This document shows positions 22,453 to 37,179 of a DNA stretch of 64,000 bases, in pieces. The notes under the pieces are model-generated. The model was not told the origin of the DNA, searched no databases, and worked only from the letters and a program-made list of their open reading frames with translations. Source of the DNA: an uncultured Alphaproteobacteria bacterium (GTDB taxonomy: Bacteria; Pseudomonadota; Alphaproteobacteria; CAAGCB01; CAG-977); the NCBI GenBank assembly GCA_944393745.1, contig CALYBD010000005.1, forward strand, positions 11,165 through 75,164, in the 5' to 3' direction. The translations under genes and the position numbers were made by a program. How positions within the stretch are numbered: position 1 is the first letter of the stretch; each line of letters starts with the position of its first letter.

Positions 22453-23157
22453 ATGGAAAAAAGTATGTCAAATGCATCTGTTCGCCAAAATATCAAGAAA
22501 ACCGCGGCTTTGGGAATGCCTGCGGAAAACGGCGGGCGTTTGTCCATGTTTATGTGGTTATCGCGTTTTTTCAGTGTATTGTGCTTTTTTTTAGTAACTT
22601 CGCTTGCCGTTCTGGCATTGTCATTAATACATATTACCAAGGAATTGGAAGTAAATTCCGTTTTGGTAACAGCGCCGACGTATTCGGAAAATCTGGCTTA
22701 TTTCGAACCGCTGCACCCGGATATGCCCGCGATGGATATTCTGGCGGAAATGTTCGTGCGCCAGTATGTGACGGCCAGAAATAACGTTTGGCGTCATGCT
22801 CAGGAAATGCGCCGTATGTGGGGACGCGGCGGTATTGTTCGTTATATGTCGACACCTGCTGTATATGAAGAATTCGCCCGTCGGGAAGTCCCCAGATACT
22901 TTCCCGATCCGGCACAGCCGCCAACGGTTATGGTTGAAACGGATATTAAACGGATTATTAAAGAGGGATGGAACAGCTGGCAGATTTTCTTTGATACCCG
23001 TCGAATGGATACATCGATCAGTATGCCGGTTGTTGAACATTGGATTGCTACCATACAGTTTCGTTATTATTCCGATAACGCCATTATGTTTTTCCGTTTG
23101 CGCAATCCGTTGGGATTTACGGTAACGCAGTATCATTTGGCTCGTCAGAAAATATAA
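22453..23157 (+). CDS. virB8: T4SS VirB8-like protein, paralog 1 (bitopic, NTF2-like periplasmic domain)
   Basis: N-terminal TM helix (FFSVLCFFLVTSLAVLALSLI) and a C-terminal RLRNPLGFTVTQYHL matching the VirB8 NPLGF-V--Y signature. Collinear with paralog 2. Confidence 0.7.
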   Translation: MEKSMSNASVRQNIKKTAALGMPAENGGRLSMFMWLSRFFSVLCFFLVTSLAVLALSLIHITKELEVNSVLVTAPTYSENLAYFEPLHPDMPAMDILAEMFVRQYVTARNNVWRHAQEMRRMWGRGGIVRYMSTPAVYEEFARREVPRYFPDPAQPPTVMVETDIKRIIKEGWNSWQIFFDTRRMDTSISMPVVEHWIATIQFRYYSDNAIMFFRLRNPLGFTVTQYHLARQKI

Positions 23158-23180
23158 TTGTCAGGGAGAGGAGCAAAAAG

Positions 23181-23379
23181 AATGAAAAAAAGACTGTTCG
23201 GAAGAATATTTTTTATAACGGCTTTATGCGCTGTTGTAAGTGCCTGCGGCTCTATTTACGAAAAGGAACCTGTCGGGATCGGTCCCGATATTTCGGAATT
23301 AAAGCGTTCTCCGTGCGCTTGCATGCTTTTAAAGCTGCCGGCGGGCTTGCCCGACTGGATAACGACGGCTCAGGGATAA
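23181..23379 (+). CDS. virB7: Small lipoprotein, VirB7-like by size and position
   Basis: 66 aa; the lipobox, RBS and placement between two virB8 paralogs match the rvh-type cluster layout as I recall it. No strong sequence signature beyond that. Confidence 0.4.
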
Positions 23380-23393
23380 CAGGATAAAAAAAT

Positions 23394-24164
23394 ATGCCAA
23401 CTCCGGTAAAATCAAAACAACAGCTGACAGTGAAAACGCCTGAAAACAACCCGGTTCAAAAGGGTTCCGTTTCCGGCGGATCCAATTTGAAAAAAAATGT
23501 TGTTCGTCAACCCGAACGTGAAGAAATTTCAATTGATCAGCTGCGGGAACGGCGTTATTTGTGGACGGCGCGGGCTTTTGCAATCGTGTCGGCCGTGGCG
23601 TTATGCGTTAATTTGGTTTTGTTGTTGGCGATTATTCATATTATGCCGCTGAAACGCGTTGAACCGTTTTTGCTGACGTTTCAGAACAGAGACGAACAGG
23701 TTGTAAAAATTCGTCCTTTGGCAAAGGATATGGCGGCGGAAGATATTATTTCCGAAGCCATGATCAGACAGTATGTGTTGTTAAGAAATACGATGATTTC
23801 GGACGTTGACGAGATGTCTTTCCGTTGGGGGCAGGACGGTCCTTTGCGCTGGATGTCTTCGGCGCAGGTGTATAACCAGTTTGCCAAAACGGTCAAGGAT
23901 TGGCTGTCAAGAATTAAACTGGAAGGCTTAACGCGCGAAGTCCGAATTGAATCCGTTGTTCGAAATCAAAACATCTGGCTGGTTTATATTGTGACGCGCG
24001 ATATGCTGCCGGAAGCCGAAGAACCCGCTATTTCGCGTTGGCGTATCCGTTTGTCGGTCAAATACTTTGCCAAAGATCAAAAAGAAGTCAAATATATTGA
24101 CCGGTTAAAGAATCCTTTGGGGTTTGCCGTTGACGGATATGCGATTGAAAGTGCTAACGATTAA
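23394..24164 (+). CDS. virB8: T4SS VirB8-like protein, paralog 2
   Basis: TM helix (AFAIVSAVALCVNLVLLLAII) and C-terminal RLKNPLGFAVDGYAI. An EAMIRQYV region parallels paralog 1 (EMFVRQYV). Confidence 0.75.
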   Translation: MPTPVKSKQQLTVKTPENNPVQKGSVSGGSNLKKNVVRQPEREEISIDQLRERRYLWTARAFAIVSAVALCVNLVLLLAIIHIMPLKRVEPFLLTFQNRDEQVVKIRPLAKDMAAEDIISEAMIRQYVLLRNTMISDVDEMSFRWGQDGPLRWMSSAQVYNQFAKTVKDWLSRIKLEGLTREVRIESVVRNQNIWLVYIVTRDMLPEAEEPAISRWRIRLSVKYFAKDQKEVKYIDRLKNPLGFAVDGYAIESAND

Positions 24165-24176
24165 AGAAGGTGTCCC

Positions 24177-25706
24177 GTGAAAAGAAATTTGAAAATTCGC
24201 CTTTTTGCTTTTGTTTCGTTGTCTTTTTGTTTTTTGCCGCAGGTCGTTTCGGCACAACAGACGGCTGCGCGTGAATCCATGGATGCGGCGATTGAACAGT
24301 CAAACGGGCAGTATTCTGAAATCGATATGCCGTTTTGGTCTTTGGGAATGCAACAAAAAGCATGGAATAAACCGATGGAACATATGGGGGAAGGCCAGTC
24401 CAAGCCGGGATATTCCAGATATTTTTGGACGCCTGATCTGGTTTTGCCGCTGCGGATTCGGGAAGGTATGCATACGCTGATTAACTTTCCGTCATGGGAA
24501 TTGATTGAAAATGTTTTTCTGGGAAATGAAAGTGCTTTCGGGGCACAGAAGGTCGCGCAGAATGCGTTGATGGTTTTTGCGGCAAATGTTGACCTGGTCG
24601 GTATGGATACGAATATGATTGTTTTCGGCCGTTCCGGGAACAGATATGTTTTTTATTTAAGAAGCGAAACCTTTAATACGGACAGAATAACCAATTCCGT
24701 CGTGGATATCGTTGTCAATGATGCAAAGTTTGTTCCCGATGATTCCGGGCAAACGCCGTTTGCTTCCGGTGCAGTCGGATCCGGCGCCGTTTCTTTTGGC
24801 GGGTCAGGCGGTTTCGGCGGCGCTTTGCGCGGCGCAAAAAAGACAACAACAAAAAACGGAACGGAAGACTGGTTGGCCGATATTGAAGTCGACCCCGAAA
24901 AATTGCGTTTTGATATTGATGTGTTTGTGCCTAATCCGGCGGATATGGAAATTGCGCCCGAACGCGTCTGGCGTGATGAGATTTTCACGTATATTGATTT
25001 CGGTCCGAAGGCGTTGACAATGACGGAACGTCCGATTGTTAATCTTTTGTCTCAGGGATCCGAAGTGCCGATCGGCTTCAGGACGCGCGGCCCCAACGGC
25101 CGACTGATGGTTGTGGAAGGCATCGGCGATTTGGTTTTGCGTAACGGGAAACGGATTTTATGCCTGAAGATCAGAAAAGATCCTGCTTTTGGCACCGAAT
25201 GGGTAGAATACGAAAAATCCGTTCAGCCGGAATGGTCGCCGGGGCCGATGATAACAACGGGCGGCTATAATGCTCCGTCTGCCGGCGGTGTTGCAAACAA
25301 TGCCGATAATACAAATATGCAGGCGGCAAATGCCATGATGATGCAGGCAGGACCGAACGGTATATTATCGGCCAATCAGATTGCTCAGTTTTCACAGCAG
25401 GGACGGGACAGTTCCCGCATGATCCGCCGTTATCGCGACACGTCTATGGAAACGATTGCGGTTGAACTGGGATCAGACAGCGAAATTGCTCCGTTGGAAC
25501 AGAAATGGGACAATATTTCACGTAAAAACAGGGATTTGCTTAATGCGTATGAACCGTATTACTCTGTTGACGCAGTCGCGGAAGGCGAATCAAAAGATTT
25601 ATTCCGTCTGCGCATCGGTCCGGTCGACAGCATTGAAGCAGGGGATAAACTATGTAATCAATTAGGTCGCCGCGGGGTGACGTGTATGGTTGTGCGGACA
25701 CAATGA
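24177..25706 (+). CDS. virB9: T4SS VirB9-like outer-membrane core protein, extended with a Gly/Ser-rich linker and a C-terminal SPOR-like segment
   Basis: GTG start with RBS; signal peptide (FLPQVVSA). A VirB9 N-domain pattern (HTLINFPSWELIENVFLGNE...MVFAANVDLVGMDTNMIVFGRSGNRYVFYL) and a C-domain pattern (YIDFGPK...IVNLL...GRLMVVEGIGDLVLRNGKRILCLKI). The terminal LFRLRIGPVDSIEAGDKLCNQLGRRGVTCMVV resembles a SPOR second half. Confidence 0.7.
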   Translation: MKRNLKIRLFAFVSLSFCFLPQVVSAQQTAARESMDAAIEQSNGQYSEIDMPFWSLGMQQKAWNKPMEHMGEGQSKPGYSRYFWTPDLVLPLRIREGMHTLINFPSWELIENVFLGNESAFGAQKVAQNALMVFAANVDLVGMDTNMIVFGRSGNRYVFYLRSETFNTDRITNSVVDIVVNDAKFVPDDSGQTPFASGAVGSGAVSFGGSGGFGGALRGAKKTTTKNGTEDWLADIEVDPEKLRFDIDVFVPNPADMEIAPERVWRDEIFTYIDFGPKALTMTERPIVNLLSQGSEVPIGFRTRGPNGRLMVVEGIGDLVLRNGKRILCLKIRKDPAFGTEWVEYEKSVQPEWSPGPMITTGGYNAPSAGGVANNADNTNMQAANAMMMQAGPNGILSANQIAQFSQQGRDSSRMIRRYRDTSMETIAVELGSDSEIAPLEQKWDNISRKNRDLLNAYEPYYSVDAVAEGESKDLFRLRIGPVDSIEAGDKLCNQLGRRGVTCMVVRTQ

Positions 25707-28700
25707 ACGAAGATTTACTCAGCTCATCAGACAGATATTTAAAAAAGTCCAACAGAACACTGTTGATTGTCGGGATTATAGCCTTTTTGGCTTTTCTGAC
25801 AGGCGTCATCGTGCTGTTGAGCGGAGAAGAAGAACGTAAAAAAGATGCCGAAGTAACGATTGAAGGATCAGCGGAAAGCTCCAGCAGTATCGTTGGCGGC
25901 GACGCCGATACCTTTAGTCTGCCCGAAGAGGCAACAGCATCTACGGTGCGTTTGGTCGTTACCCCCGAAACCATGCGGTTTGATCAGGTCGTTCTGGGAA
26001 CAATGGCGGAAGGAACATTGACGTTATCGGCTTCTTCCGGGCGGATCAGCGTGACGGCAATCGAATTTGAAAATAAACAGGAAGACGGCTTTGTTCTGGA
26101 AAATAAATGTCGTAAAGATATTGTCCTGACCGGAGACGTCACCTGTAACGTTGTCGTGCGCTGGGAACCGAAAACGGCGCGGACGATTCAGTCTAATCTG
26201 GCTGTTCGCTGGACAGATGAAACGTTCGGCGGTATCGGGCGAAAAGTTATTGTTCCCATTTCGGCAATGGCAATTGATACCAGTATGTGCGGCGTTTGTG
26301 ATGAAGTGCCGGGCAGCAGCGGATCCATGCTGGATCAGCTGCGTCAAAAAGGTCGTGTCATTTTGGGGCCTGACGGGAAACCGATCGGATATGCCGACGA
26401 AAACGGTGTTGTTTACGGGTTGGACGGCAAAAGAATCGGAACTTTGCGCGAAGACGGAACCGTTGTTGATGATCAGGGCTATGTGATCGGTGTTGCGGAA
26501 GGCAGCAGAATAGCCATCGGTCCGAACGGGGAAATCCTGGGTACGATTCTGCCGGACGGCCGCGTAATAGATAAAGACGGCCGTTTGATCGGTTATGCTT
26601 TGCCGGACGGTACCATTGTTGATGAAAACGGAAACGTGATCGGATCTGCGATTAAAACGGGAATCGCGTATGATAAAAACGGCAATCCGATCGGGCGGAT
26701 TATGCCGGACGGGACGGTTGTCGACGATGAAGGCAACGTGATCGGCTATGTGAATCCGGACGGGACGATCGTTGATGCCAACGGTAATATTATCGGATCC
26801 GTTGCGCCGCAGGGAACGGTGGTTGACGCTTCGGGAAAACCGCTGGGAATTGTTATGCCGGACGGGACGGTCGTTGATGCTGACGGCAATATTATCGGCC
26901 GGACTTTACCAAACGGCTTTGTCGTTGACAGAGACGGCAATATTATCGGCCGTGTTGTCAAAGAAGGATTGGCAATCGGGCCCGGTTGCCGCATGATCGG
27001 CAGAATCAGTACGGACGGTTCCGTTATGTCTTCAAACAGACAGGTGGGGCGTTTAACGGCTTCCATGACCGTTGTCGATATGGCGGGCAATCCGATCGGC
27101 GGCTATGTTGAAGAAGGCGCTCTGATTGACTGGGCGGGGAAAATTATCGGTAAGGTCGATCAGGACGGACACCCCGTTTCTTTTAAAGGGGATCCTCTGG
27201 GGTGTTTAACGCCGTACGGGACGGTTGTTAACGATTCTGAAGAAATTATTGCCGCCGTTTTGCCGAAAGGAACGGTTGTCGGAACGCAGTGCGGCGTTGT
27301 CGGACGTGTTATGCCGGACGGCAGTGTTGTCGGCGATGGTCAGATTAAAGGACGCATTTTGCCGGATAAATCATTTTTATCGACAGAAGGGAAAATTGCG
27401 GGCGCTTTGGCGCGTCAGAATGTCGGTGTCGGACCGGGGTGTATGTCTTTGGGATATGTCAATCTTGACGGACAGGTTATGACAGCCAAGGGCGAACTGG
27501 TCGGCTGTCTGGCGGCGAACGGGGAAATCCTTGATAATCAAAAAGTCGTTTTGGGAAAAATATTGGATTCCGCCGTTGCCATAAATCCCGACGGGCGGGT
27601 TGTCGGCGTAATGGATCCGGTCGGCAGAATTCAGGATAAAGAAGGAAAAATTTTAGGCTGTGCGGATCCTGACGGGCTGGTTATTAACTCCAAAAACGAA
27701 TCGGTCGGCATAATGATGCCGACGGGCGGTGTTTTGGATCGTGACGGGCGTACAATCGGCTGGGTTATGCCGGACGGTTCTGTTTCAAACGGAAAAAACA
27801 GCACTGTCGGTAAAGTCATGCCGGACGGGACTGTCATTGACCTGACCGGACAAACGGTTGCTCGTGTCGCACCGTATAAAGGACTGGCTTTAAGAGGCAG
27901 CTGTGAACCGGTCGGCAACGTTTTGATTGACGGGCGTGTCGTTGATAATGAATTTAAACGGACGGCTTATATCCGCATGGACGACAGTCTGGCAAACGAA
28001 GCCGGTGATTTTGTCGGCCGTATCGCTTATGGCGCCAGAGGCATCAGTGCCAAAGACGTTTATTTGGGGGCAACGGGAAATGACGGCACGTTATATAATC
28101 CGGCCGGCGAAAAAATCGGTTGCTTGCGCCCGGATTCTTTATTCGTTGACGCAGAAAATAAATTTTTGGGCGCGGCTCTTCCCGAAGGAGTGGCTGTTAA
28201 TGATAAATCAGAACTGTATGCCCGAGGCGATTCGATCGCCAAAGCGCTGGATCTGAAAGGATCGGAATTTATCGGTTCGGTGACGCTCAGCGGCTTTATC
28301 AAAGAAGGCGACAGAATTTCCGGCGGAATTATTCCGGACAGAGCTGATGTTTTGGATATTAAAACCAGTGAAAAAATCGGTCGTTTATTGCCTGACGGTA
28401 CGGCGCTGGATTTGCTCAGCCGTTATTTGGGACGGTTAAGAATGCCCAGTGGGGAAATTGTCAATAAAGACGGCCGCGTCGTCGGTAAGATCTTTGTCGG
28501 TATGCGCCAAGTGATCGGCCCGAACGGAGAAATTCTGGGGGTGGTGATGCCGGACGGTACCGTGGTAGATGCTTCGGGTCGCGTTATCGGCAAAGCCGAT
28601 TTGAACGGTAAAGTCGTTGATAAAGACGGACGGGTCATCGGTGAAGTCATTCCGGTCGGCCAGCCGATTATCGGCCCTGACGGGAAAATTATCGGTTACG

Positions 28701-31700
28701 TCGGTGTCGACGGCCAGATTGTTGACAAAGACGGGAATCCCGTTTTAGGTCCCGACGGAAAGCCTTTGCGTTATCGTGCCGGCGGTTCTGTCGTTGAAGA
28801 CGGCGGAGAAGTGATCGGAAAAATCGGCGAGACTCTGGAACGTCTGGTTTATGATGAAAACGGCAATGTGATCGGCCGGGTATTGCCGGACGGAACGGTC
28901 GTTGATTTGGAAGGCAACGTGATCGGCACGATGCGTCCGGACGGCACGGTGGTGGATAAAGACGGCAATGTGATCGGCAGGGCAGGTCAGCCGGAACGTC
29001 TGGTTTATGATGAAAACGGTAATTTAATCGGTCGCGTATTGCCGGACGGAACGGTCGTCGATCTGAAAGGCAACGTGATCGGCCGTGTTCAGGACGACGG
29101 TACGGTGACGGCTTTGGGCTCTAAAGTGATCGGCTATACGGTCAAAGACGGTCTGGGACTGAACTTTAAAAATGAAATTATCGGTAAAATCAATTCTTCC
29201 GGTCAGCTTAAAGAACCCGGTTCGGATAAATCTTTGGGTTTTTTGCAGGCAGATGACACCATTACGGACGCAACGAATACCGTTATCGGCAAAGGGGTTG
29301 TTAATGCCGTTCCCATTGGTCTGCAATGTCAGATGCTGGGGACGATTGACGATAACGGGCAGGTTATTGATACAACGGGACGGCAGATCGGCCGGCTGAA
29401 TTATGATCGTTCTTTGGTTAATGCTTCGAATGCTCAGATCGGTTTGGCTTTGGGGCAGGAATCCATTATTAATGAACCGTGTGAGATTATCGGGCAGATT
29501 ACGACCGAAGGAAAAGCAGTCGATACCAAAGGTCAGGAAATCGGCTGTGTTGATTTTGAAGGGCTGGTAAAAGATAAAAACGGAAAACGACTGGGACGAA
29601 TCGTTCAGAAAGGACAGGTGCGCGGCCCCGATGATCAGATTATCGGCAGGATCGTTGCCAACGGTGAAGCGTTGGGATCTCAGGGGGACGTGTTAGGGTG
29701 TTTTTCGATTGACGGTGCCGTTTTGGATAAAAATAAAAAAATCCTGGGGGTTTCTGCCGACATGAAATATGCCATTGACGATCAGGGGAAAGTCATTGCT
29801 CATATTTTGGGCGGCACGTACGGCGTTAATCCTGCAGGCGGATCTTTTGTCGGTATGTTAAACGGGCAAAATCTGATCGGCGCAGAAAATCGTCAGTTGG
29901 GCGTACTTGTTCCTGCCGGCAGAAAAGTCATTGCAACGGACGGTAAGATTGTCGGAACCGTTCTGCCGCGCGGGCAGGTTCATAATGACCGCGGAGAAGA
30001 TGTCGGTTATGCCACTTCGTCCATGCGAGTTTTAACCGCAGATCGTAAATTTTTGGGACGCGTCGTCCCGATCGGCGAAGAATGTAAAGACGGTAAAAAC
30101 AACGTTGTCGGTACCGTCCACTTTGACGGCACGATTATTGACGAAAGAAAACAGGTCTTAGGACGTTTGCTGGCCAGCGGCCAGGCTTTGGACAATTCCG
30201 GTGCTCATTTATGTATGATTTCTTTGATCAGTACAAATGATGACGGGTCTTTGTTCCCGAAAGGGTTGATCGGAAAAATGGTTTACGGTCCGGACGGAAA
30301 GCCGTTGGGTGTTATCGGTGAAGACGGGTTTATTCGTGATGCAAACGGTAATATTATCGGACGTGTTTTGCCGGACGGCACGGTCGTCGATTTGGACGGC
30401 AACGTGATCGGCAAGGCTTATCCGAAAGGGGCTGTTTTCAGTCCTGACGGTAAATTTTTGGGTATTGTTGACGCAGACGGGTATTTGCGGGACGAAAACG
30501 GCAATATCATCGGCAGAATGTTGCCGGACGGTACCGTTGTCGATATGAACGGTAACATTATCGGCCGGGCTTTGCAGGAAGACGGTATTGTCGATTCAAA
30601 AGGGAATTTCCTGACAAAAGCAGGCGAAGACCGTTTGGTTTATGATGCCAACGGCAACGTGATCGGACGTGTTTTGCCGGACGGTACCGTTGTTGATTTA
30701 AAGGGGAACGTTATCGGCAGAATGTTGCCGGACGGTACGGTCGTTGATGCAAACGGCAATGTGATCGGTCGGGCGGGGCCGCCCGAGCGTTTGGCCTATG
30801 ATGCGAACGGCAATGTGATCGGTCGGGTATTGCCGGACGGTACCGTTGTTGATTTTAAAGGCAATGTAATCGGAAGAGTACAGCCCGACGGGACAATTGT
30901 TGATGCGACCGGGAAAGTTATCGGTCGGGCCGGGCCGCCTGTTGAGGCAAAAAATGTTCGTATTGCTGTCGGGCGTGACGGTAAATTTTTGGGTGTTGTC
31001 GGTGAAGACGGTCTTGTCCGTGACGAAAACGGCAATGTGATCGGCCGGGTATTGCCGGACGGAACGGTTGTTGACATGAACGGAAATGTAATCGGTTCTG
31101 TGATTGAAGGAGAACCGATGCGTGATGCAAACGGCAATATTATCGGTGTTATCATGCCGGACGGCCGCGTTGTTGATTTAGACGGCAATGTGATCGGTCG
31201 CATTAATGCAAACGGGGAAATCGTTGATGCGGACGGAACGGTTTTGGGCACATGGCGCGGCGGGAAACTGACGGCAATGAGCGATAAGCTGCAGAAAAAA
31301 CGTTTTGCGTTCGGCAAGGACGGCAAAAGAATCGGTATGATTATGCCGGACGGAACGGTTGTTGATGAAAACGGCAATATTATCGGTCGCGTTGATGAAG
31401 ACGGTAATGTGGTCGATTTAGACGGCAACATCATCGGGACGGTTGAAGAACCGTCTGCGGGAGGGCCGGCAGAAGAAGATAAAAAAGAAGGCAGTGTTTC
31501 CATTTTTGGTGCTTTTGATCCGGAAAATTACCGGTATCGCGGTAAATCTTTGGGATCCGGCGGCGGTACGGGAAAAGGGGAACGTTATGATCCCGCCCGC
31601 ATAAAACAGCTTCGGGCATTGCAATTGGCTTATCGTCGTCAGATCAGACCCGGACGGGGGATCGGCATTGCCTCGACCGAAGAAGATTTGCTGAAAAAGC

Positions 31701-32728
31701 AAAAACGCAGCAAAAGTTGGGCTGATTTGGGTGTGCTGAAGAATGTATCATCATATCGTGTCAATATGGATAATATGATTTTGGCGGATAAAGCCATACC
31801 GGCCGTTTTGGCGCGTTCCATTGATACGGAACAGGAAGATATTCCCATTTCCGCAATTGTTGAACGCAACATTTATTCGGAATCGGGACGTAAAATTATT
31901 ATTCCCGCCGGCAGCCGTGTTATTGGCGAACTCAGCGGTTCTTCGGCCAGTGAAGAAGTCGGAGCGGCTTCAAAAGTCGAAATTTCCTGGACACGCCTGA
32001 TTCGTCCGGACGGTGCGGCGTTCCAGTTTGACGAAGGATCTTCGGGTGATGCTTCCGGTCGTGCGGGCGTCGGCGCGTATATGGACCGACAGTTGATGAA
32101 GAAATACGGACTGCCGATGGTTCAGTCGACAATTACTTCTGCAATTTTGTATGCCATGGCAACGGATGACGCGGCCGAAGTCGGATCAGAAGGTGAAGTT
32201 GCCATGTCGGGTCGTCAGCAGGCGGCTGAAGATGCACGTACCAGATTTTCCGATACGATGCAGCAGATTTTTGATGATATCATCAGTGAAACGTCACAGT
32301 TAAAAACGCGCTTGTTTGTTCCTTCCGGTACACGAATTACGATTTTTGCAAACGCGGATTTATGGCTGCGCAGTGAAGCAGAAGATGAAGATGAAGCGTC
32401 TATCGGCAAGAAAGATGTTTTGATTGATCCAGATAAAGATGATGACAGAAATGTTGTTGATGATCCTTCTACGATTTCTTCGGGTACGACGACTCCGCAT
32501 GATCCGAACGCTCAAAATGTCCAAAATGATCCAAATAACTTGCAACAACAGCAGCAAATTTACTATAATAATTATGCTGGTCAGCAGGCGCCGCAACAGC
32601 AACAGCCTCCGCAGGGCAGATTGATCGACAGTAATAAGCAGCAACAACAACAGCAGCAGCCACTTCCGCCGCCGATTATACAGGAAAAGAAAGAAGAACC
32701 GGTTGATCCCGTTCCCGAACTTTTCTAA
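25703..32728 (+). CDS. virB10: Giant T4SS VirB10-like protein (about 2,340 aa): N-terminal TM anchor, a beta-rich domain, an internal repeat array of about 1,700 aa, a canonical VirB10/TrbI C-terminal domain, and a Q/P-rich tail
   Basis: Likely ATG at 25703 overlapping the virB9 stop (ATGA); the track starts at the GTG at 25682. TM helix LLIVGIIAFLAFLTGVIVLL. The C-terminal block IIPAGSRVIGELSG...KVEISWTRLIRPDGAAFQFDEGSSGDASGRAGVGAYMDRQLMKKYG matches the conserved VirB10/TrbI signature (IPAG-R-IGE...W-RLI-PDG....G.D..GRAG..G). Confidence 0.8.
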   Translation: MNEDLLSSSDRYLKKSNRTLLIVGIIAFLAFLTGVIVLLSGEEERKKDAEVTIEGSAESSSSIVGGDADTFSLPEEATASTVRLVVTPETMRFDQVVLGTMAEGTLTLSASSGRISVTAIEFENKQEDGFVLENKCRKDIVLTGDVTCNVVVRWEPKTARTIQSNLAVRWTDETFGGIGRKVIVPISAMAIDTSMCGVCDEVPGSSGSMLDQLRQKGRVILGPDGKPIGYADENGVVYGLDGKRIGTLREDGTVVDDQGYVIGVAEGSRIAIGPNGEILGTILPDGRVIDKDGRLIGYALPDGTIVDENGNVIGSAIKTGIAYDKNGNPIGRIMPDGTVVDDEGNVIGYVNPDGTIVDANGNIIGSVAPQGTVVDASGKPLGIVMPDGTVVDADGNIIGRTLPNGFVVDRDGNIIGRVVKEGLAIGPGCRMIGRISTDGSVMSSNRQVGRLTASMTVVDMAGNPIGGYVEEGALIDWAGKIIGKVDQDGHPVSFKGDPLGCLTPYGTVVNDSEEIIAAVLPKGTVVGTQCGVVGRVMPDGSVVGDGQIKGRILPDKSFLSTEGKIAGALARQNVGVGPGCMSLGYVNLDGQVMTAKGELVGCLAANGEILDNQKVVLGKILDSAVAINPDGRVVGVMDPVGRIQDKEGKILGCADPDGLVINSKNESVGIMMPTGGVLDRDGRTIGWVMPDGSVSNGKNSTVGKVMPDGTVIDLTGQTVARVAPYKGLALRGSCEPVGNVLIDGRVVDNEFKRTAYIRMDDSLANEAGDFVGRIAYGARGISAKDVYLGATGNDGTLYNPAGEKIGCLRPDSLFVDAENKFLGAALPEGVAVNDKSELYARGDSIAKALDLKGSEFIGSVTLSGFIKEGDRISGGIIPDRADVLDIKTSEKIGRLLPDGTALDLLSRYLGRLRMPSGEIVNKDGRVVGKIFVGMRQVIGPNGEILGVVMPDGTVVDASGRVIGKADLNGKVVDKDGRVIGEVIPVGQPIIGPDGKIIGYVGVDGQIVDKDGNPVLGPDGKPLRYRAGGSVVEDGGEVIGKIGETLERLVYDENGNVIGRVLPDGTVVDLEGNVIGTMRPDGTVVDKDGNVIGRAGQPERLVYDENGNLIGRVLPDGTVVDLKGNVIGRVQDDGTVTALGSKVIGYTVKDGLGLNFKNEIIGKINSSGQLKEPGSDKSLGFLQADDTITDATNTVIGKGVVNAVPIGLQCQMLGTIDDNGQVIDTTGRQIGRLNYDRSLVNASNAQIGLALGQESIINEPCEIIGQITTEGKAVDTKGQEIGCVDFEGLVKDKNGKRLGRIVQKGQVRGPDDQIIGRIVANGEALGSQGDVLGCFSIDGAVLDKNKKILGVSADMKYAIDDQGKVIAHILGGTYGVNPAGGSFVGMLNGQNLIGAENRQLGVLVPAGRKVIATDGKIVGTVLPRGQVHNDRGEDVGYATSSMRVLTADRKFLGRVVPIGEECKDGKNNVVGTVHFDGTIIDERKQVLGRLLASGQALDNSGAHLCMISLISTNDDGSLFPKGLIGKMVYGPDGKPLGVIGEDGFIRDANGNIIGRVLPDGTVVDLDGNVIGKAYPKGAVFSPDGKFLGIVDADGYLRDENGNIIGRMLPDGTVVDMNGNIIGRALQEDGIVDSKGNFLTKAGEDRLVYDANGNVIGRVLPDGTVVDLKGNVIGRMLPDGTVVDANGNVIGRAGPPERLAYDANGNVIGRVLPDGTVVDFKGNVIGRVQPDGTIVDATGKVIGRAGPPVEAKNVRIAVGRDGKFLGVVGEDGLVRDENGNVIGRVLPDGTVVDMNGNVIGSVIEGEPMRDANGNIIGVIMPDGRVVDLDGNVIGRINANGEIVDADGTVLGTWRGGKLTAMSDKLQKKRFAFGKDGKRIGMIMPDGTVVDENGNIIGRVDEDGNVVDLDGNIIGTVEEPSAGGPAEEDKKEGSVSIFGAFDPENYRYRGKSLGSGGGTGKGERYDPARIKQLRALQLAYRRQIRPGRGIGIASTEEDLLKKQKRSKSWADLGVLKNVSSYRVNMDNMILADKAIPAVLARSIDTEQEDIPISAIVERNIYSESGRKIIIPAGSRVIGELSGSSASEEVGAASKVEISWTRLIRPDGAAFQFDEGSSGDASGRAGVGAYMDRQLMKKYGLPMVQSTITSAILYAMATDDAAEVGSEGEVAMSGRQQAAEDARTRFSDTMQQIFDDIISETSQLKTRLFVPSGTRITIFANADLWLRSEAEDEDEASIGKKDVLIDPDKDDDRNVVDDPSTISSGTTTPHDPNAQNVQNDPNNLQQQQQIYYNNYAGQQAPQQQQPPQGRLIDSNKQQQQQQQPLPPPIIQEKKEEPVDPVPELF
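26350..31450 (+). repeat. In-frame tandem repeat array inside virB10: on the order of 100 units of about 17 aa (consensus LPDGTVVDxxGNVIGRx, two G-x-(V/I)-(V/I) half-units), with higher-order units of about 50 aa
   Basis: Visible directly in the translation (for example RVLPDGTVVDLKGNVIGRMLPDGTVVDANGNVIGRAGPPERLAYDANGNVIGR...) and at DNA level, with related copies at 28848-29085 and 30625-30950. The repeat generates many spurious antisense ORFs. Confidence 0.9.
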
Positions 32729-32746: not shown

Positions 32747-33724
32747 ATGAGTATGGATTCTTTTCAGGTTTTAAGATCGACATTGCGTTATCTGTCATAT
32801 TGGTATGAACAAGATAACGTCGAAGAAGTCGCGATTAACCGTCCGAACGAAATTTGGTTGCGTTTGCGCGGACGCAGGGCTCATCCTTGGGCATGCCAGC
32901 AGGACGCCAATCTGTCCAGAACGTATCTGACGGACATCATGCATATTATCGCCAACACGTTTGAACTGCCGTTTGATCCCGAACAGGGATCGCCGGCCGT
33001 GTATGCCACGCTGCCGGGCGATCACCGTTTTACGGGAATTGCGGGCAAAAACGTTATGTATGATAACGAGGATCTGACCGGCGGTATTGCCATGTGCGTT
33101 CGTGTTCATTCCGATGATGTGAAATTCGGATTGGGGGATTACGGCCTGAAATCGGGGGAACGCCTGCAAAAGCTTAATAAATTGAAAGAAGTTGAAAATC
33201 CGGAAGATCCGTATGAACGCCTGATTTTATCAATTAAGCGCGGCGACCATATTTTGGTTTCCGGGGCAACGGCAACCGGTAAAACGACATTTTTGAATAA
33301 CCTGCTGACCATTTTGGATTCGCATAAACGGGTAATTACGATTGAAGATACCCGCGAATTAATTGTGCCGCATCCCAACCATGTACATTTGGTGTTATCG
33401 CGTACGGAACAAACAAACACAATGACATATCCGAAATTGATTGACCTGGTTGTTCGTTTTACGCCGGATGCGATTATCGGCGGGGAAATTTCAACGGCTA
33501 ATGCCGGGGCGTTGTGGGAATTGATGGGATCCGGGCATGACAACTGCTTTGCGACAATTCACGCCGAAAATTCCGAAGCGGCCTATAAAGCGTTTACGGA
33601 TCGTATTCTGCATTGCTATCCGACGATTGACCGTGAAAAAACAATTGCCGAAATGCATGATAAGCTGCGGGTGGTTCAGATCAATCGTCAGGGAAATATC
33701 CGTGCCGTGACAGAAGTGACCTAA
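32747..33724 (+). CDS. virB11: T4SS ATPase VirB11 (traffic ATPase)
   Basis: Walker A GATATGKTT, Asp box IEDTRELIV, His box GSGHDNCFATIHA; 325 aa; directly downstream of virB10. Confidence 0.85.
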   Translation: MSMDSFQVLRSTLRYLSYWYEQDNVEEVAINRPNEIWLRLRGRRAHPWACQQDANLSRTYLTDIMHIIANTFELPFDPEQGSPAVYATLPGDHRFTGIAGKNVMYDNEDLTGGIAMCVRVHSDDVKFGLGDYGLKSGERLQKLNKLKEVENPEDPYERLILSIKRGDHILVSGATATGKTTFLNNLLTILDSHKRVITIEDTRELIVPHPNHVHLVLSRTEQTNTMTYPKLIDLVVRFTPDAIIGGEISTANAGALWELMGSGHDNCFATIHAENSEAAYKAFTDRILHCYPTIDREKTIAEMHDKLRVVQINRQGNIRAVTEVT

Positions 33725-33764: not shown

Positions 33765-35252
33765 TTGCGTTTAAGTTTTACACTTTATATTTCCGGTTAT
33801 CTTTTGTTGTTTCTGGGGATTTCCATGCTTATTCCGGCAGGATTGGATTATGCCCAGGGGCGGGGTGATTTTGCGTTTTCTTTCGTAAAGTCGTCGGGTG
33901 TAACAGTGTTTTGGGGAACATTGTTTGTTCTGGCTTTCAAGGGGGTTTATAAAAAACTGACTCTTGCTCAGATGTATTTGGCAACGACATTATCGTGGAT
34001 TTTGATGTGTTCTTTTGCCGCAATACCGTTTGTCTTTGCGCCGTATTCCATTTCGTATACGGATGCTTTTTTTGAATCAATGTCCGGATTAACGACTTCG
34101 GGAGCAACGATCTATTCTGATTTGACGCTTTGTTCGAACGGTATTATTTTATGGCGCAGTTTGTTGCATTGGTTTGGCGGACTGGGAATTGTCGCGTTGG
34201 CCATGCTGTTGTTGCCGTTTTTAAGAATAGGCGGCATGCAGTTGTTTCAGATGGAAAGTTCTGATAAAAACGATAAAGTAAAGCCCAGAACGGTACAGGT
34301 TATCGGGACAATTACGGTTGTTTATGTCGTTGTTACGGCGTTATGCGTGGCATGCCTGTTATTAACGGAATTGGATTTTTTTGAAGCATTGAATTTCAGT
34401 ATGGCCAGTATTTCCACCGGCGGTTTTGCCCCGCGCAATACGTCGGCCGTTGATTTGTCCCCTGCGGCGCAGTATATCATAGCCTTTTTTATGTTTATTT
34501 CGGGTATGCCGTTGTTTTCCTTATATTTTATTTATAAAAGGGAATGGAAAAAAGTCACGGAAGATATTCAGATCAAAACTTATTTTTGGGTTGTTGCCGC
34601 TTTAACCGCCGTTGTGACGGCATGGCTGATGATCCATTATCCGGAAACGGATTTTTTCAAAATTTTCAGGACGACTTTATTTAATGTTATTTCGATTATT
34701 TCTTCCACCGGTTTTAACGCATCGAATTTGGAAACGGGCGGAGCCTTTGTTATTTGCATTTATTCGCTGCTGACGGTCATCGGCGCTTGTACCGGATCAA
34801 CCAGCGGCGGCATAAAAATCTTTCGTTTCAACATCCTGGCCATAACCGTTATTCAGTCGCTGCGCCAAAAAATAATGCCGCATACGGTTTTAATGCCTAA
34901 ATTTAACAATCGTCCGCTGACAACGGACGTTGTTTTCAGCGTGGTTGTGTTCATGGTGATGTTCTTTTTAACATCTGTTGTTTCCATTTTACTGTTGTCG
35001 ATGTACGGCTTGGATTTTTTAACATCGGTTTCTTCGGTTTTTTCGGCGATCGGAAATACGGGAATCGGACTGGGCCCCGTTGTCGGCAGTTCCGGAGGCG
35101 GTTATTGTTCTTTGCCGACTTTTGTTAAGTGGGTTTTATCCGCAGATATGCTTTTGGGGCGTTTGGAATTTATGAGCATTTTTATTTTGATTATGCCCAT
35201 GACGTGGCGTCGCAACAGTTTAAAGCGCACCAAGTCAGAAACGGCGCTTTAA
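33765..35252 (+). CDS. trkH: TrkH/KtrB-family potassium uptake protein
   Basis: A TTG start is the only in-frame start before TM1. Repeated membrane-pore-membrane architecture with glycine-containing selectivity-filter motifs (SGLTTSGAT, STGGFA, SSTGFN, GNTGIG). Confidence 0.8.
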   Translation: MRLSFTLYISGYLLLFLGISMLIPAGLDYAQGRGDFAFSFVKSSGVTVFWGTLFVLAFKGVYKKLTLAQMYLATTLSWILMCSFAAIPFVFAPYSISYTDAFFESMSGLTTSGATIYSDLTLCSNGIILWRSLLHWFGGLGIVALAMLLLPFLRIGGMQLFQMESSDKNDKVKPRTVQVIGTITVVYVVVTALCVACLLLTELDFFEALNFSMASISTGGFAPRNTSAVDLSPAAQYIIAFFMFISGMPLFSLYFIYKREWKKVTEDIQIKTYFWVVAALTAVVTAWLMIHYPETDFFKIFRTTLFNVISIISSTGFNASNLETGGAFVICIYSLLTVIGACTGSTSGGIKIFRFNILAITVIQSLRQKIMPHTVLMPKFNNRPLTTDVVFSVVVFMVMFFLTSVVSILLLSMYGLDFLTSVSSVFSAIGNTGIGLGPVVGSSGGGYCSLPTFVKWVLSADMLLGRLEFMSIFILIMPMTWRRNSLKRTKSETAL

Positions 35253-35746: not shown

Positions 35747-36235
35747 TTGCTAAATTATAAAAATGAAAAGATTAAAGATGGGTTGAATATGACGGAAAAC
35801 GAAGACGTTTTTTCATGGGAAGGCGATGCCTGTCGCGATATGGTGACATATCGTTTTATTGAATTGTCCGGGACTGCTTTGGCCGTGGCGTTTGAACAGG
35901 ATCCGGAACTGCGTAAAAAATACGCTTTATGGCTGTCACAAAAAGAGATCGGAACAAAGCCGGTCATTTTATATACCTTTGAATTGGAACACGATGATGA
36001 GGTTTCTGTTTTTGCCATGCCGCGGGAAAATCATTTTCTGGTGCGGTTTCATACCTCATTGTTTGAAACATTGGTTTCAATCGTTTATGATATGGAATTA
36101 ATGAATATCCGTGCGGCCAGAATCGTGATGTTCACCGGCAAAGCTTTGTATGCCGTTTCATGGGCAGAGGCCTTGCATGACATATGGGGCGATGAGTTTA
36201 TGGCTTTGATGCGTTCAAAAGGAGATGATGCATGA
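35747..36235 (+). CDS. Hypothetical protein
   Basis: ORF with an ATGA overlap onto the downstream gene. The start may be the internal Met at 35789. No family I recognise. Confidence 0.4.
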   Translation: MLNYKNEKIKDGLNMTENEDVFSWEGDACRDMVTYRFIELSGTALAVAFEQDPELRKKYALWLSQKEIGTKPVILYTFELEHDDEVSVFAMPRENHFLVRFHTSLFETLVSIVYDMELMNIRAARIVMFTGKALYAVSWAEALHDIWGDEFMALMRSKGDDA

Positions 36236-37179
36236 TAATACGGTTTTGTATAGCTGTTCTTACAATACTTTTTTTGTCGTCCGATCCGGCTTTTGCCGCA
36301 CCGATTAAGGAAAAAAGTCCGTATCCCGTAGATAATTGCGGCGCAACATATAACAGCCAACCGTTCAGGATTGTCGGTTTTAAAGATTATCCGCCTTTTT
36401 CCTGGGGGGAATTAGATGAAAGATTTTATCAGGATACGGGGAAAAAACGTTATACATTTCACGGTTTTATTCTGGATCCTTTAAAACAGGCTCTGGCAGA
36501 TATTCATGTCAAACAAATCAGTGATCTGGCTTTTGATGATTTTAATGAGGCACAGAAAGCCATGTTGCACGGCAAAGCGGATTTGTTGTTTATCGGTTAT
36601 TATATCGATGAAAGCAAATCGGGAATGGATTATATTTATCCGGCTTATTTCGGAAATCCTTTTGTTGTTGTGTCCCGGAAAACAAAGAAAATTGACGTGG
36701 AAGATTTTTCCGGATTAAAAGGACTGAAGGGGGTCGTCCGCCGAGAAGAAGAAGTCGAACCGTTAATTCGCGGTTTGTTGCCGACGGATACAAAGCTGGA
36801 GGTTGTTGACGGTCCCGAAACGGCTTTTCGCAAGCTGCTGTCCGGCGATGTGGATTTTATGATTACCAGTCCTTATGCTGCCGATGCCGAATCGAAACGT
36901 TTTAAGGTCAAAGATAAATTGCATTTCGGAACAAAAGTGTTGCGCCATATCAAATATTTTATGGCTTTTTCGAAAATGTCGGTTTGCCGCCGTTATAAGG
37001 ATATCTTTACTCAAAAACTAGACGCGCGCATCAGAAACAAGGCGGAAATAGAAAAACTGATCCATAAATATATTGATATCTGGGTCGAAAAGCATGCCGA
37101 TGAACCGCCGCTGGAATATGTTCCCGCCAATGATACGCCTGCGGCCGCAGCTCAGCCGTCGGCCGTTCCGCAGGCCTAA
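36232..37179 (+). CDS. Periplasmic solute-binding-domain protein (amino-acid SBP family 3-like), with no transporter partner
   Basis: Signal peptide (LTILFLSSDPAFAAP); ADLLFIGYYIDESKSG...YIYPAYFGNPFVVVSRK resembles SBP_bac_3. Confidence 0.5.
   Translation: MIIRFCIAVLTILFLSSDPAFAAPIKEKSPYPVDNCGATYNSQPFRIVGFKDYPPFSWGELDERFYQDTGKKRYTFHGFILDPLKQALADIHVKQISDLAFDDFNEAQKAMLHGKADLLFIGYYIDESKSGMDYIYPAYFGNPFVVVSRKTKKIDVEDFSGLKGLKGVVRREEEVEPLIRGLLPTDTKLEVVDGPETAFRKLLSGDVDFMITSPYAADAESKRFKVKDKLHFGTKVLRHIKYFMAFSKMSVCRRYKDIFTQKLDARIRNKAEIEKLIHKYIDIWVEKHADEPPLEYVPANDTPAAAAQPSAVPQA

What the first reader, a model, noticed from the sequence alone, without database searches (positions are those of the whole stretch)
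24177..25706. VirB9 homolog extended by a Gly/Ser-rich linker and a C-terminal SPOR-like peptidoglycan-binding segment
The protein is 509 aa against about 270-300 for a typical VirB9. A low-complexity insert (ASGAVGSGAVSFGGSGGFGGALRGAKK) lies between the VirB9 N- and C-domains. After the C-domain, the tail LFRLRIGPVDSIEAGDKLCNQLGRRGVTCMVV matches the second beta-alpha-beta half of SPOR domains (FRVRVGPF...A...L...G...VV). A PG-binding module on the outer-membrane core subunit would anchor the secretion channel to the sacculus. This is unusual for VirB9 but fits an extra-long VirB10-spanned envelope complex.
Basis: partly seen in the sequence, partly recalled or inferred. Interest (0 to 1): 0.55.

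Follow-up and report, generated by a model that had tools for sequence, protein, structure and literature searches.

The report
VirB9 secretion-channel subunit with SPOR tail
The outer-membrane ring protein (VirB9) of a type IV secretion system in an uncultured gut alphaproteobacterium carries a conserved extra domain on a floppy tether. The domain has the fold of a cell-wall-binding SPOR module, so it probably ties the machine to the cell wall, but it lacks the one residue best known to be needed for that binding.

Summary
ORF 24177-25706 (+) encodes a 509-aa VirB9 (Pfam CagX E=1.2e-13). It sits in a virB8 / virB7-like / virB8 / virB9 / virB10 / virB11 islet. The Gly/Ser-rich stretch (res 196-222) is an expanded, fast-evolving version of the normal linker between the N- and C-terminal domains.

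After a second disordered linker (res 341-424) comes a complete SPOR-fold domain (res 425-508), not just half of one:
- Pfam SPOR scores above its gathering threshold.
- The AlphaFold model has pLDDT about 90.
- The best PDB fold matches are the SPOR domains of CwlC and RlpA (TM about 0.7).

The tail is present in all 119 full-length proteins among the 120 best homologs and is under strong purifying selection (dN/dS about 0.05). A remote version sits on plasmid VirB9s of cultured Sphingomonadales that have ordinary-sized VirB10. It is therefore not tied to the giant VirB10 here. Rickettsia and a Holosporales VirB9 lack it.

The glycan-contacting L-x-R-x-R strand of RlpA is kept. The canonical Gln (FtsN Q251) is an invariant Glu, and Q251E weakens FtsN binding.

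Most likely the tail is a periplasmic cell-wall tether for the outer-membrane complex. A co-opted protein-docking role is the main rival. I rate it a new variant of a known kind, of moderate interest.

The parts
24177..25706 (+). virB9 gene with a C-terminal SPOR-type domain (509 aa plus stop)
   Evidence: ORF. Pfam CagX and SPOR. 1142 homologs.
24177..24254 (+). Sec signal peptide (res 1-26, ...VVSA|QQ)
   Evidence: Read directly from the sequence. The N-terminus aligns with homologs.
24255..24416 (+). Conserved N-terminal extension (res 27-80) before the Pfam VirB9 match; function unknown
   Evidence: Many invariant columns. dN/dS 0.02-0.03. Shared with Erythrobacter plasmid VirB9. No Pfam hit.
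24417..24716 (+). VirB9 N-terminal domain (res 81-180), the periplasmic I-layer part
   Evidence: Pfam CagX starts at res 81. TIGR02781 matches res 85-165. Weak colinear match to 6gyb VirB9 residues 31-96. dN/dS 0.01-0.03.
24717..24872 (+). Linker 1 (res 181-232), which contains the Gly/Ser-rich run at res 196-222 (nt 24762-24842)
   Evidence: pLDDT below 50 over res 165-243. Variable in sequence and length among homologs. dN/dS 0.09-0.15.
24873..25196 (+). VirB9 C-terminal domain (res 233-340), the O-layer part, with invariant C329 in the last strand
   Evidence: Pfam CagX runs to res 330. Colinear with 6gyb residues 177-250. Invariant C329. Its position in the last CTD strand resembles that of the Cys which PMC2653234 implicates in the VirB7 disulfide; this is my inference, not an alignment.
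25197..25448 (+). Linker 2 (res 341-424), a disordered low-complexity tether rich in Gly, Asn, Gln, Ala and Met
   Evidence: pLDDT below 50 over res 335-351 and 357-423. Length varies widely among homologs (alignment gaps; protein lengths 470-615 aa). dN/dS 0.21-0.32.
25449..25700 (+). SPOR-fold domain (res 425-508): b1 426-434, a1 437-455, b2 460-465, b3 475-483, a2 486-498, b4 504-508. Key residues: E430, L475/R477/R479, C493, C503.
   Evidence: Pfam SPOR above its gathering score. AlphaFold pLDDT above 90. Foldseek top hits are the CwlC, RlpA and DedD SPOR domains. dN/dS 0.04-0.06.
22453..23157 (+). Context: first virB8 copy
   Evidence: Pfam VirB8, E=2.7e-14.
23158..23379 (+). Context: 73-aa lipoprotein, a VirB7 candidate (lipobox VSAC; KRSPC motif)
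   Evidence: Sequence. The motif resembles the [KI]KSP-Cys motif of Rickettsia VirB7 and ComB7 (PMC2653234). No Pfam hit.
23394..24164 (+). Context: second virB8 copy
   Evidence: Pfam VirB8, E=8e-22.
25703..32728 (+). Context: giant virB10. The likely ATG at 25703 overlaps the virB9 stop as ATGA. The TrbI domain lies near the C-terminus, preceded by a long run of beta-flower repeats.
32747..33724 (+). Context: virB11-type ATPase
   Evidence: Pfam T2SSE, E=6.4e-21.

Best explanation
The protein is a type IV secretion VirB9 subunit. Its C-terminal domain, which in known systems forms the outer ring of the O-layer under the outer membrane in 14 or more copies, is followed by a disordered tether of about 85 residues and a small, probably disulfide-stabilised, SPOR-family domain.

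The domain is exported with the rest of the protein. It would hang in the periplasm around the channel and bind the glycan strands of the sacculus through the open face of its beta-sheet. Many copies per machine would give avidity. This would fix or position the outer-membrane complex relative to the cell wall.

Canonical SPOR domains prefer peptide-free ('denuded') glycan made by amidases. The tether could therefore bias assembly to remodelled wall, such as the division site or new pole, or the hole opened for the machine. The Gln-to-Glu change suggests lower affinity or a shifted ligand preference compared with FtsN and RlpA.

Shown here: the domain architecture, the fold, the conservation and the purifying selection. 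Inferred: periplasmic location, disulfide formation, peptidoglycan binding, and any role in localisation.
For: - VirB9 identity and gene context.
- The SPOR Pfam match is above the gathering score in this protein and significant in 54 of 55 relatives.
- AlphaFold gives a confident beta-alpha-beta-beta-alpha-beta domain, pLDDT about 90 alone and above 90 in the full-length model.
- The best PDB fold matches are peptidoglycan-binding SPOR domains. CwlC 1x60 has E=2.8e-4 and TM 0.67/0.72. RlpA bound to denuded glycan (6i09) has TM 0.71/0.78 and rmsd 2.3 A. DedD (6ztg) also matches.
- Strand 3 reads L475-F-R477-L-R479-I-G-P. This is in register with FtsN W283-N-R285-V-V-I-G-P and so with RlpA L307/R309/R311, residues that contact MurNAc (PMC6895207). 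R479 is invariant and R477 is at least 90% conserved.
- A folded SPOR unit on a low-complexity linker is the usual SPOR architecture (PMC6895207).
- The tail has dN/dS 0.04-0.06 against 0.2-0.3 for the linker.
- The tail is present in all 119 full-length proteins of the top 120 homologs and, in remote form, in Sphingomonadales plasmid T4SSs.
- C493 and C503 are invariant. This fits an oxidising compartment. FtsN's SPOR domain also needs a disulfide.
Against: - The residue equivalent to the most conserved SPOR binding residue (FtsN Q251, RlpA Q270, DamX Q351) is an invariant Glu (E430). It is Asp in remote relatives and Gln in only one representative.
- Q251E in FtsN reduces septal localisation and denuded-glycan binding (bioRxiv 10.1101/2024.05.13.594014).
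- The first half of the domain does not align to the Pfam SPOR model.
- Invariant acidic or polar residues on strand 2 (S463, D465) may neutralise the basic patch that is described as strictly preserved in SPOR domains.
- Precedent for caution: DotK and Lpg0657 in the Legionella Dot/Icm core complex have peptidoglycan-binding folds but lack key residues, and their authors think they do not bind peptidoglycan (PMC7511231).
- No experiment exists. The organism is uncultured.
Confidence: 0.5

Rival explanations
1. The SPOR fold is kept but wall binding has been lost. The domain is a co-opted protein-protein module that docks on another T4SS part (VirB10, VirB7, VirB8 or a neighbouring VirB9). It would add a ring or a regulatory latch to the outer-membrane complex.
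For: - Invariant Glu replaces the canonical Gln, and Q251E weakens FtsN binding.
- Residues of helix 1 are invariant (L440, E441, W444, N451), which is unusual for SPOR domains, whose pairwise identity is typically below 20% (PMC6895207).
- The tail is very highly conserved (mean column identity 71% in A2).
- Precedent: DotK and Lpg0657 have peptidoglycan-binding folds, lack key residues and contact DotD rather than peptidoglycan (PMC7511231).
Against: - The glycan-contacting L-x-R-x-R strand is conserved.
- The tether is long, disordered and highly variable in length and sequence. That suits reaching a diffuse target better than fixed docking.
- The tail occurs with very different VirB10 partners (2348 aa here, 529 aa in Erythrobacter), so VirB10 repeats are not the partner.
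Confidence: 0.3
2. The tail is displayed outside the cell and acts as an adhesin for glycans on a target cell, bacterial or host.
For: - Parts of the VirB9/TraO C-domain were once reported to protrude from the outer membrane (figure legend quoted in PMC2653234).
- The Cys pair would also suit an extracellular domain.
- The neighbouring VirB10 carries a very large repeat region of the kind often found on surfaces.
Against: - Current structures place VirB9 C-domains in the outer ring of the O-layer (review PMC12857230). From established knowledge of T4SS core-complex structures, not tested here, this ring lies under the outer membrane and the membrane is crossed by VirB10.
- There is no transmembrane or beta-barrel segment between the C-domain and the tail, only a disordered linker.
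- All characterised SPOR domains act on the cell's own wall.
Confidence: 0.05
3. The extension is not a real part of VirB9. It could be a gene-calling or assembly fusion with a neighbouring small SPOR gene, or a decaying remnant.
For: In one lineage (L032-L034) the VirB9 core and a 116-aa SPOR ORF are called as two overlapping genes.
Against: - There is a single uninterrupted frame here and in all 119 full-length proteins of the top 120 homologs.
- The split in L032-L034 is a frameshift inside linker 2, at a site that carries Ns or sequence differences between assemblies. The 116-aa ORF has no signal peptide.
- The tail is under strong purifying selection.
- virB10 starts at an ATGA overlap with the virB9 stop.
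Confidence: 0.03

Closest known systems
SPOR domains of FtsN, DamX, DedD, RlpA (E. coli, P. aeruginosa) and CwlC (B. subtilis), Pfam PF05036
   Same: - About 80-aa beta-alpha-beta-beta-alpha-beta RNP-like fold.
- Pfam match above the gathering score.
- Strand-3 hydrophobic-x-Arg-x-Arg motif as in RlpA L307/R309/R311 and FtsN W283/R285.
- Attached through a disordered low-complexity linker.
- A Cys pair, as in FtsN, although placed differently.
   Different: - Fused to a secretion-system ring subunit instead of a membrane anchor, lytic transglycosylase or amidase.
- The canonical strand-1 Gln is an invariant Glu.
- The first beta-alpha-beta half is too divergent for the Pfam model.
- Helix 1 carries invariant residues.
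- Binding has not been tested.
Canonical VirB9/TraO/TrbG (A. tumefaciens, pKM101, X. citri 6gyb; R. typhi RvhB9a, 247 aa)
   Same: - Signal peptide, N-domain, linker and C-domain.
- Pfam CagX match.
- Conserved Cys in the last strand.
- Encoded between virB8 and virB10.
   Different: - About twice as long.
- Extra conserved N-terminal segment (res 27-80).
- Longer Gly-rich inter-domain linker.
- 170 extra C-terminal residues (tether plus SPOR), where canonical proteins end within about 5-15 residues of the last strand.
VirB9 of Erythrobacter aureus YH-07 plasmid NZ_CP031358.1 (WP_115418090.1, 432 aa) and Sphingosinicella sp. BN140058 p1 (WP_129392748.1, 430 aa)
   Same: - Same N-terminal extension motif (QKAW.NP...GYSR).
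- Homologous C-terminal domain (hhalign 96%, E=2.4e-9 over 77 columns), with an acidic residue on strand 1, R-L-R-x-G-P and the Cys pair.
   Different: - Only about 33% identical overall.
- Shorter linkers.
- Pfam SPOR does not detect their tails.
- They sit in complete plasmid virB2-virB11/virD4 clusters with an ordinary 529-aa VirB10.
Peptidoglycan-binding-fold subunits of other secretion machines: DotK and Lpg0657 in the Legionella Dot/Icm core complex. From my own knowledge, not checked here: OmpA-like or LysM modules on T6SS TssL/TagL, T4P TsaP and Brucella VirB12.
   Same: A wall-binding fold is recruited to an envelope-spanning nanomachine near the outer membrane.
   Different: - Those are OmpA-like or LysM folds, usually on separate accessory proteins. 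Here a SPOR fold is fused to the core subunit VirB9.
- DotK and Lpg0657 are thought not to bind peptidoglycan (PMC7511231). That is a warning for this case as well.

Membership tests
VirB9/TrbG/CagX family (PF03524) | Sequence match to the family model above its curated threshold | tested here: met
   PF03524: 51.7 bits against a cut-off of 34.2, E=1.2e-13, res 81-330. All 55 aligned relatives match.
VirB9/TrbG/CagX family (PF03524) | Two beta-rich domains (N and C) colinear with a solved VirB9 | tested here: inconclusive
   The best PDB sequence hit is X. citri VirB9 6gyb_b, with both domains in order, but E=0.84. The AlphaFold model of these domains has low confidence (pLDDT 50-60) and found no VirB9 by Foldseek.
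VirB9/TrbG/CagX family (PF03524) | Exported (signal peptide) and encoded between virB8 and virB10 | tested here: met
   The signal peptide is read directly from the sequence. virB8 lies upstream. A TrbI-domain gene follows, overlapping by ATGA.
VirB9 equivalog (NCBIfam TIGR02781) | Score above the equivalog cut-off | tested here: not met
   42.8 bits against a cut-off of 217.7. It is a divergent family member, not an equivalog of the P-type conjugative VirB9.
SPOR domain (PF05036) | Sequence match above Pfam's gathering score | tested here: met
   24.4 bits (whole protein) and 28.1 bits (tail alone) against 21. Only profile positions 34-76 align. 54 of 55 relatives match at E<=0.01.
SPOR domain (PF05036) | About 70-80-aa RNP-like beta-alpha-beta-beta-alpha-beta fold | tested here: met
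   AlphaFold pLDDT 90.5 with that exact order of elements. Foldseek top hits: CwlC SPOR (E=2.8e-4, TM 0.67/0.72), RlpA SPOR (TM 0.71/0.78) and DedD.
SPOR domain (PF05036) | Conserved Gln on strand 1 that hydrogen-bonds MurNAc lactyl and GlcNAc N-acetyl (RlpA Q270, FtsN Q251, DamX Q351) | tested here: not met
   V-E430-L-G-S aligns with V-Q-C-G-S (FtsN), V-Q-V-G-A (RlpA) and V-Q-I-G-A (CwlC). The Glu is invariant in 55 relatives. It is Asp in remote relatives and Gln in only one. The role of the Gln comes from PMC6895207.
SPOR domain (PF05036) | Basic and hydrophobic residues on strand 3 facing the glycan (RlpA L307/R309/R311; FtsN W283/R285) | tested here: met
   L475-x-R477-x-R479-I-G-P is in register with FtsN W283-N-R285-V-V-I-G-P. 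R479 is invariant and R477 at least 90% conserved.
SPOR domain (PF05036) | Binds peptide-free glycan strands and localises to the septum | not testable with these tools
   This needs sacculus pull-down, ITC and fluorescent fusions.
Rickettsiales vir homolog (rvh)-type T4SS | Scattered chromosomal islets. One islet has duplicated virB8 genes around a virB7 lipoprotein, followed by virB9, virB10, virB11 and virD4. virB9 is duplicated. | tested here: inconclusive
   The order virB8 / lipoprotein (KRSPC motif) / virB8 / virB9 / virB10 / virB11 among housekeeping genes resembles Rickettsia islet C. However, all genes are on one strand, no virD4 follows (TrkH instead), no second virB9 is in the window, and no phylogeny was made.

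The most novel reading that the evidence does not exclude
The Glu-type SPOR domain on VirB9 defines a secretion-system-specific branch of the SPOR family. This branch would read a different wall feature from FtsN and RlpA, for example glycan ends or chemically modified (de-N-acetylated or amidated) strands. It would use that feature to place type IV secretion machines at a defined site such as the new pole. That would give a simple, testable mechanism for T4SS positioning that is shared by gut Alphaproteobacteria and Sphingomonadales plasmids.
Probability: 0.15. Interest if true: 0.65.

Novelty: new variant of a known kind. Interest (0 to 1): 0.45.

Why it matters
How type IV secretion machines are fitted into the cell wall and positioned relative to it is poorly understood. 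Attention has gone mostly to VirB1-type wall-cutting enzymes. A wall-reading domain fused to the core ring subunit would be a direct physical link between the outer-membrane complex and the sacculus. Because SPOR domains recognise amidase-processed glycan, it could also explain septal or polar placement.

The family is large: more than 1000 clusters at 90% identity in gut and rumen Alphaproteobacteria. It also has culturable relatives (Erythrobacter and Sphingosinicella plasmids), so the idea can be tested.

The natural Gln-to-Glu replacement is a useful probe of what SPOR domains need for binding. Public annotation calls these proteins only 'TrbG/VirB9 family' proteins. I found no paper that mentions VirB9 together with a SPOR domain.

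Tried and rejected
- PDB sequence search with the tail alone (phmmer) found nothing meaningful. With the tail profile, the CwlC SPOR domain came first but at E=0.092. The fold comparison was needed.
- PDB profile search with the full family found no significant VirB9.
- The full-length AlphaFold model is confident only in the tail. It found no VirB9 structure by Foldseek.
- The word-index protein search with the tail profile returned only short fragments of the same family, so it says nothing about the nearest non-VirB9 SPOR proteins.
- Cluster look-ups gave almost no organism names for remote relatives, so the taxonomic spread beyond the named MAGs and plasmids is unresolved.
- tblastn of the tail alone against plasmids found nothing. 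The whole protein was needed to find the Erythrobacter homolog.
- The idea of a genuinely separate SPOR gene (L032-L034) was rejected. The split is a frameshift at an assembly-ambiguous site inside linker 2.
- The idea that the tail goes with the giant VirB10 was rejected because of the Sphingomonadales clusters.
- The geometry of the Cys pair and of the sheet face could not be measured, because model coordinates are not exposed to the script tool.
Full report
**Observation.** The ORF at 24177-25706 (+) is real. It encodes 509 aa from a GTG start preceded by a GAAGG Shine-Dalgarno-like motif. It begins with a typical signal peptide (…VVSA|QQ). Pfam places a CagX/VirB9 match at residues 81-330 (E=1.2e-13, 51.7 bits against a cut-off of 34.2). 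It places a SPOR match at residues 463-507 (24.4 bits against a cut-off of 21; 28.1 bits and E=2.6e-6 when the last 99 residues are scanned alone). NCBIfam's VirB9 equivalog model matches only weakly (42.8 against 217.7), so this is a divergent VirB9.

The quoted tail is residues 475-506. For comparison:
- R. typhi VirB9a and VirB9b are 247 and 158 aa (PMC2653234).
- Xanthomonas VirB9 is 255 aa and ends about 5 residues after the position aligned to family-profile position 336, roughly residue 330 of this protein.
- A Holosporales (Paracaedimonas) plasmid VirB9 is 318 aa with no tail.

**Context.** Upstream lie two VirB8 genes (22453-23157 and 23394-24164; Pfam E=2.7e-14 and 8e-22). They flank a 73-aa lipoprotein candidate (23158-23379). 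It has a VSAC lipobox and a KRSPC motif that resembles the [KI]KSP-Cys motif noted for Rickettsia VirB7 and ComB7.

Downstream, virB10 most likely starts at the ATG at 25703, which overlaps the virB9 stop as ATGA. It encodes about 2340 aa. Only residues 2033-2229 are the TrbI domain. Most of the rest matches beta-flower/DUF3659 repeat models. A VirB11-type ATPase follows. After that comes TrkH rather than VirD4. The rest of the window is housekeeping. The islet therefore resembles, but does not equal, islet C of the Rickettsiales vir-homolog system.

The closest genomes are uncultured gut and rumen Alphaproteobacteria MAGs from human, ruminant and horse samples.

**Anatomy of the protein.** An alignment of 55 relatives with 48-90% identity (A1) and an AlphaFold model give this layout:

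| Segment | Residues |
|---|---|
| Signal peptide | 1-26 |
| Conserved N-terminal extension, no known family | 27-80 |
| VirB9 N-domain | 81-180 |
| Linker 1 | 181-232 |
| VirB9 C-domain (invariant C329 in the last strand) | 233-340 |
| Linker 2 | 341-424 |
| Folded tail domain | 425-508 |

Both linkers are predicted disordered (pLDDT below 50). They vary in sequence and length among relatives, and family members range from 470 to 615 aa.

Codon analysis against 20 related loci gives these dN/dS values:
- N-terminal extension and the two VirB9 domains: 0.01-0.04.
- Tail domain: 0.04-0.06.
- Linker 1: 0.09-0.15.
- Linker 2: 0.21-0.32.

Synonymous sites are near saturation, so the ratios are qualitative. 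The 'insert' is thus a stretched version of the normal inter-domain linker. The tail is a selected, functional domain.

**The tail is a complete SPOR-fold domain.**
- Modelled alone with 26 family tails, it gives pLDDT 90.5 and the element order b1-a1-b2-b3-a2-b4. The same domain is the only confident part of the full-length model.
- Against the PDB, the best Foldseek match is the CwlC SPOR domain (1x60, E=2.8e-4, TM 0.67/0.72).
- Also among the top hits are the P. aeruginosa RlpA SPOR domain bound to denuded glycan (6i09, TM 0.71/0.78, rmsd 2.3 A), the apo form (6i05) and DedD (6ztg) (same result with the full model).
- Other ferredoxin-like folds score much lower in TM.
- 54 of 55 relatives hit Pfam SPOR at E<=0.01.

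**Binding residues.** I aligned the tail with E. coli FtsN, DamX and RlpA SPOR sequences taken from MG1655, and ran relaxed hhalign runs that also included CwlC. Strand 1, I-A-V-E430-L-G-S, falls on W-M-V-Q251-C-G-S (FtsN), F-M-V-Q-V-G-A (RlpA) and Y-K-V-Q-I-G-A (CwlC). Helix 1 starts at the same offset.

Strand 3, L475-F-R477-L-R479-I-G-P, falls on FtsN W283-N-R285-V-V-I-G-P. The RlpA-glycan paper states that Q270 (equivalent to FtsN Q251) is the only highly conserved residue. Its amide hydrogen-bonds the MurNAc lactyl group and the GlcNAc N-acetyl group. R302/R309/R311 form the basic patch, R285 of FtsN matches R309, and W283 matches L307 (PMC6895207).

The tail therefore keeps the hydrophobic-x-Arg-x-Arg strand. 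R479 is invariant and R477 at least 90% conserved. But it replaces the key Gln by an invariant Glu. In FtsN, Q251E reduces septal localisation and denuded-glycan binding of the isolated domain (bioRxiv 10.1101/2024.05.13.594014).

Across more distant VirB9 tails the position is Glu or Asp. It is Gln in only one representative. Two Cys residues (C493 in helix 2, C503 at the start of strand 4) are invariant. A disulfide is likely but was not measured.

**Distribution.**
- The word-index search found 1142 relatives. Of the top 120, 119 are full length and all 119 end in the tail.
- An exhaustive profile search of 1.84 billion cluster representatives found 1305 proteins at E<=1e-3.
- Among the 111 listed representatives of at least 300 aa, 29 carry a tail detectable by an iterated tail profile.
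- About 22 more end in a two-Cys beta-alpha-beta unit related to the second half of the domain (hhalign 81-96%).
- The remainder stop soon after the C-domain or have unrelated tails.
- In annotated plasmids, the VirB9 of Erythrobacter aureus YH-07 (432 aa) and Sphingosinicella sp. BN140058 (430 aa) share the N-terminal extension and a homologous tail (hhalign 96%, E=2.4e-9 over 77 columns). Pfam does not recognise those tails.
- Those two plasmid VirB9s lie next to ordinary-sized VirB10 genes (529 aa in Erythrobacter), and the Erythrobacter cluster is a complete virB2-virB11/virD4 set. The tail is therefore not an adaptation to the giant VirB10.
- Azospirillum and Paracaedimonas VirB9s lack it.

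**Mechanism.** In solved systems, VirB9 C-domains together with VirB7 form the outer ring of the O-layer and VirB9 N-domains form the I-layer, in 14 or more copies (review PMC12857230). The tail starts a few residues after the last C-domain strand. A disordered tether of about 85 residues can span the roughly 10 nm from the outer membrane to the wall; this distance is from my own knowledge.

The most economical reading is a ring of SPOR-type domains that hold the wall around the channel. Multivalency would give avidity. If the canonical preference for peptide-free glycan is retained, there would be a bias toward amidase-processed wall, such as the septum or new pole, or a locally opened hole. 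I give this 0.5.

The main rival (0.3) is that the fold has been co-opted for protein docking. The evidence for it is the Gln-to-Glu change, the invariant helix-1 residues, and the precedent of DotK and Lpg0657. Those two proteins have peptidoglycan-binding folds in the Dot/Icm core complex, lack key residues, and are thought not to bind peptidoglycan (PMC7511231). The evidence against it is the conserved Arg strand and the long, length-variable tether.

An extracellular adhesin role (0.05) and an annotation artefact (0.03) are unlikely. The one lineage in which the core and tail are called as two ORFs has a frameshift at an ambiguous assembly site inside linker 2, and its tail ORF lacks a signal peptide.

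**Novelty.** Both parts are well-known families. The fusion is visible in precomputed Pfam annotations for some members. I found no paper that mentions VirB9 together with a SPOR domain, or SPOR domains as T4SS parts. The proteins are annotated only as TrbG/VirB9 family proteins.

It is a new variant of a known kind: a core T4SS subunit with a built-in SPOR-family module that has a natural substitution at the canonical binding residue. It is widespread in gut Alphaproteobacteria and present in remote form in culturable Sphingomonadales. Interest is moderate (0.45). It gives a testable handle on how T4SS machines relate to the wall, but function is unproven and wall-binding folds on secretion machines are not new in principle.

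Noticed in passing
window 25682/25703-32728 (+): The giant VirB10 has 2348 aa by the ORF list; the likely ATG at 25703 overlaps the virB9 stop as ATGA. The TrbI domain covers only res 2033-2229. Most of the rest matches beta-flower (PF21785/PF21784), DUF3659 and RHS-like repeat models, 13 stretches for PF21785 alone. In being a very long VirB10 homolog with large repeat regions it recalls H. pylori CagY (comparison from my own knowledge).
   Followed up: partly
window 22453-24164 (+): Two VirB8 paralogs flank a 73-aa lipoprotein (lipobox VSAC, KRSPC motif). This mirrors the virB8a / virB7 / virB8b arrangement and the VirB7 motif described for Rickettsia. No virD4 follows virB11; TrkH sits at 33765-35252.
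   Followed up: partly
window 24255-24416 (VirB9 res 27-80): A strongly conserved N-terminal extension lies ahead of the Pfam VirB9 match (dN/dS 0.02-0.03). It has no family hit. The motif QKAW.(N/D)P...GYSR is shared with the Erythrobacter aureus plasmid VirB9. Function unknown.
   Followed up: partly
L032 6719-8351, L033, L034: In one related lineage the VirB9 core (405-438 aa) and a 116-aa SPOR ORF are called separately. The frameshift lies in linker 2, at a spot with Ns or sequence differences between three assemblies. This suggests an error-prone or variable low-complexity site.
   Followed up: yes
L038 8911-10209 (Erythrobacter aureus plasmid NZ_CP031358.1); L040 1405-2697 (Sphingosinicella p1): VirB9 proteins on plasmids of cultured Sphingomonadales carry a homologous tail (VDLG…RLRVGPF…C…C) that Pfam SPOR misses. 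They offer a culturable test system.
   Followed up: yes
L041 1246-2898 (Microvirga pMVF16-3 VirB9, 550 aa); representatives P0199, P0211-P0215, P0230, P0232, P0237 and others: Many other long VirB9 proteins end in a two-Cys beta-alpha-beta unit (…A..xC…x6-9…C.v). It is related to the second half of the tail (hhalign 81-96%). A C-terminal add-on to VirB9 may be much more widespread than the SPOR-scoring clade.
   Followed up: partly
window 10159-14836 (+): Two VWA-domain proteins (the second also with TPR repeats) and a BatD-like protein form a Bat-type (aerotolerance-like) operon. It is unrelated to the T4SS islet.
   Followed up: no
window 2558-5787 (-), 8158-9323 (-), 35747-37179 (+), 46331-47443 (-): Several sizeable ORFs (162-557 aa) have no Pfam match at E<=1e-5. 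They were not examined further.
   Followed up: no
window 56447-59269 (-): A 940-aa protein made largely of HEAT/Armadillo-type repeats. This is unusual for a bacterial chromosome and could be an effector-like protein.
   Followed up: no
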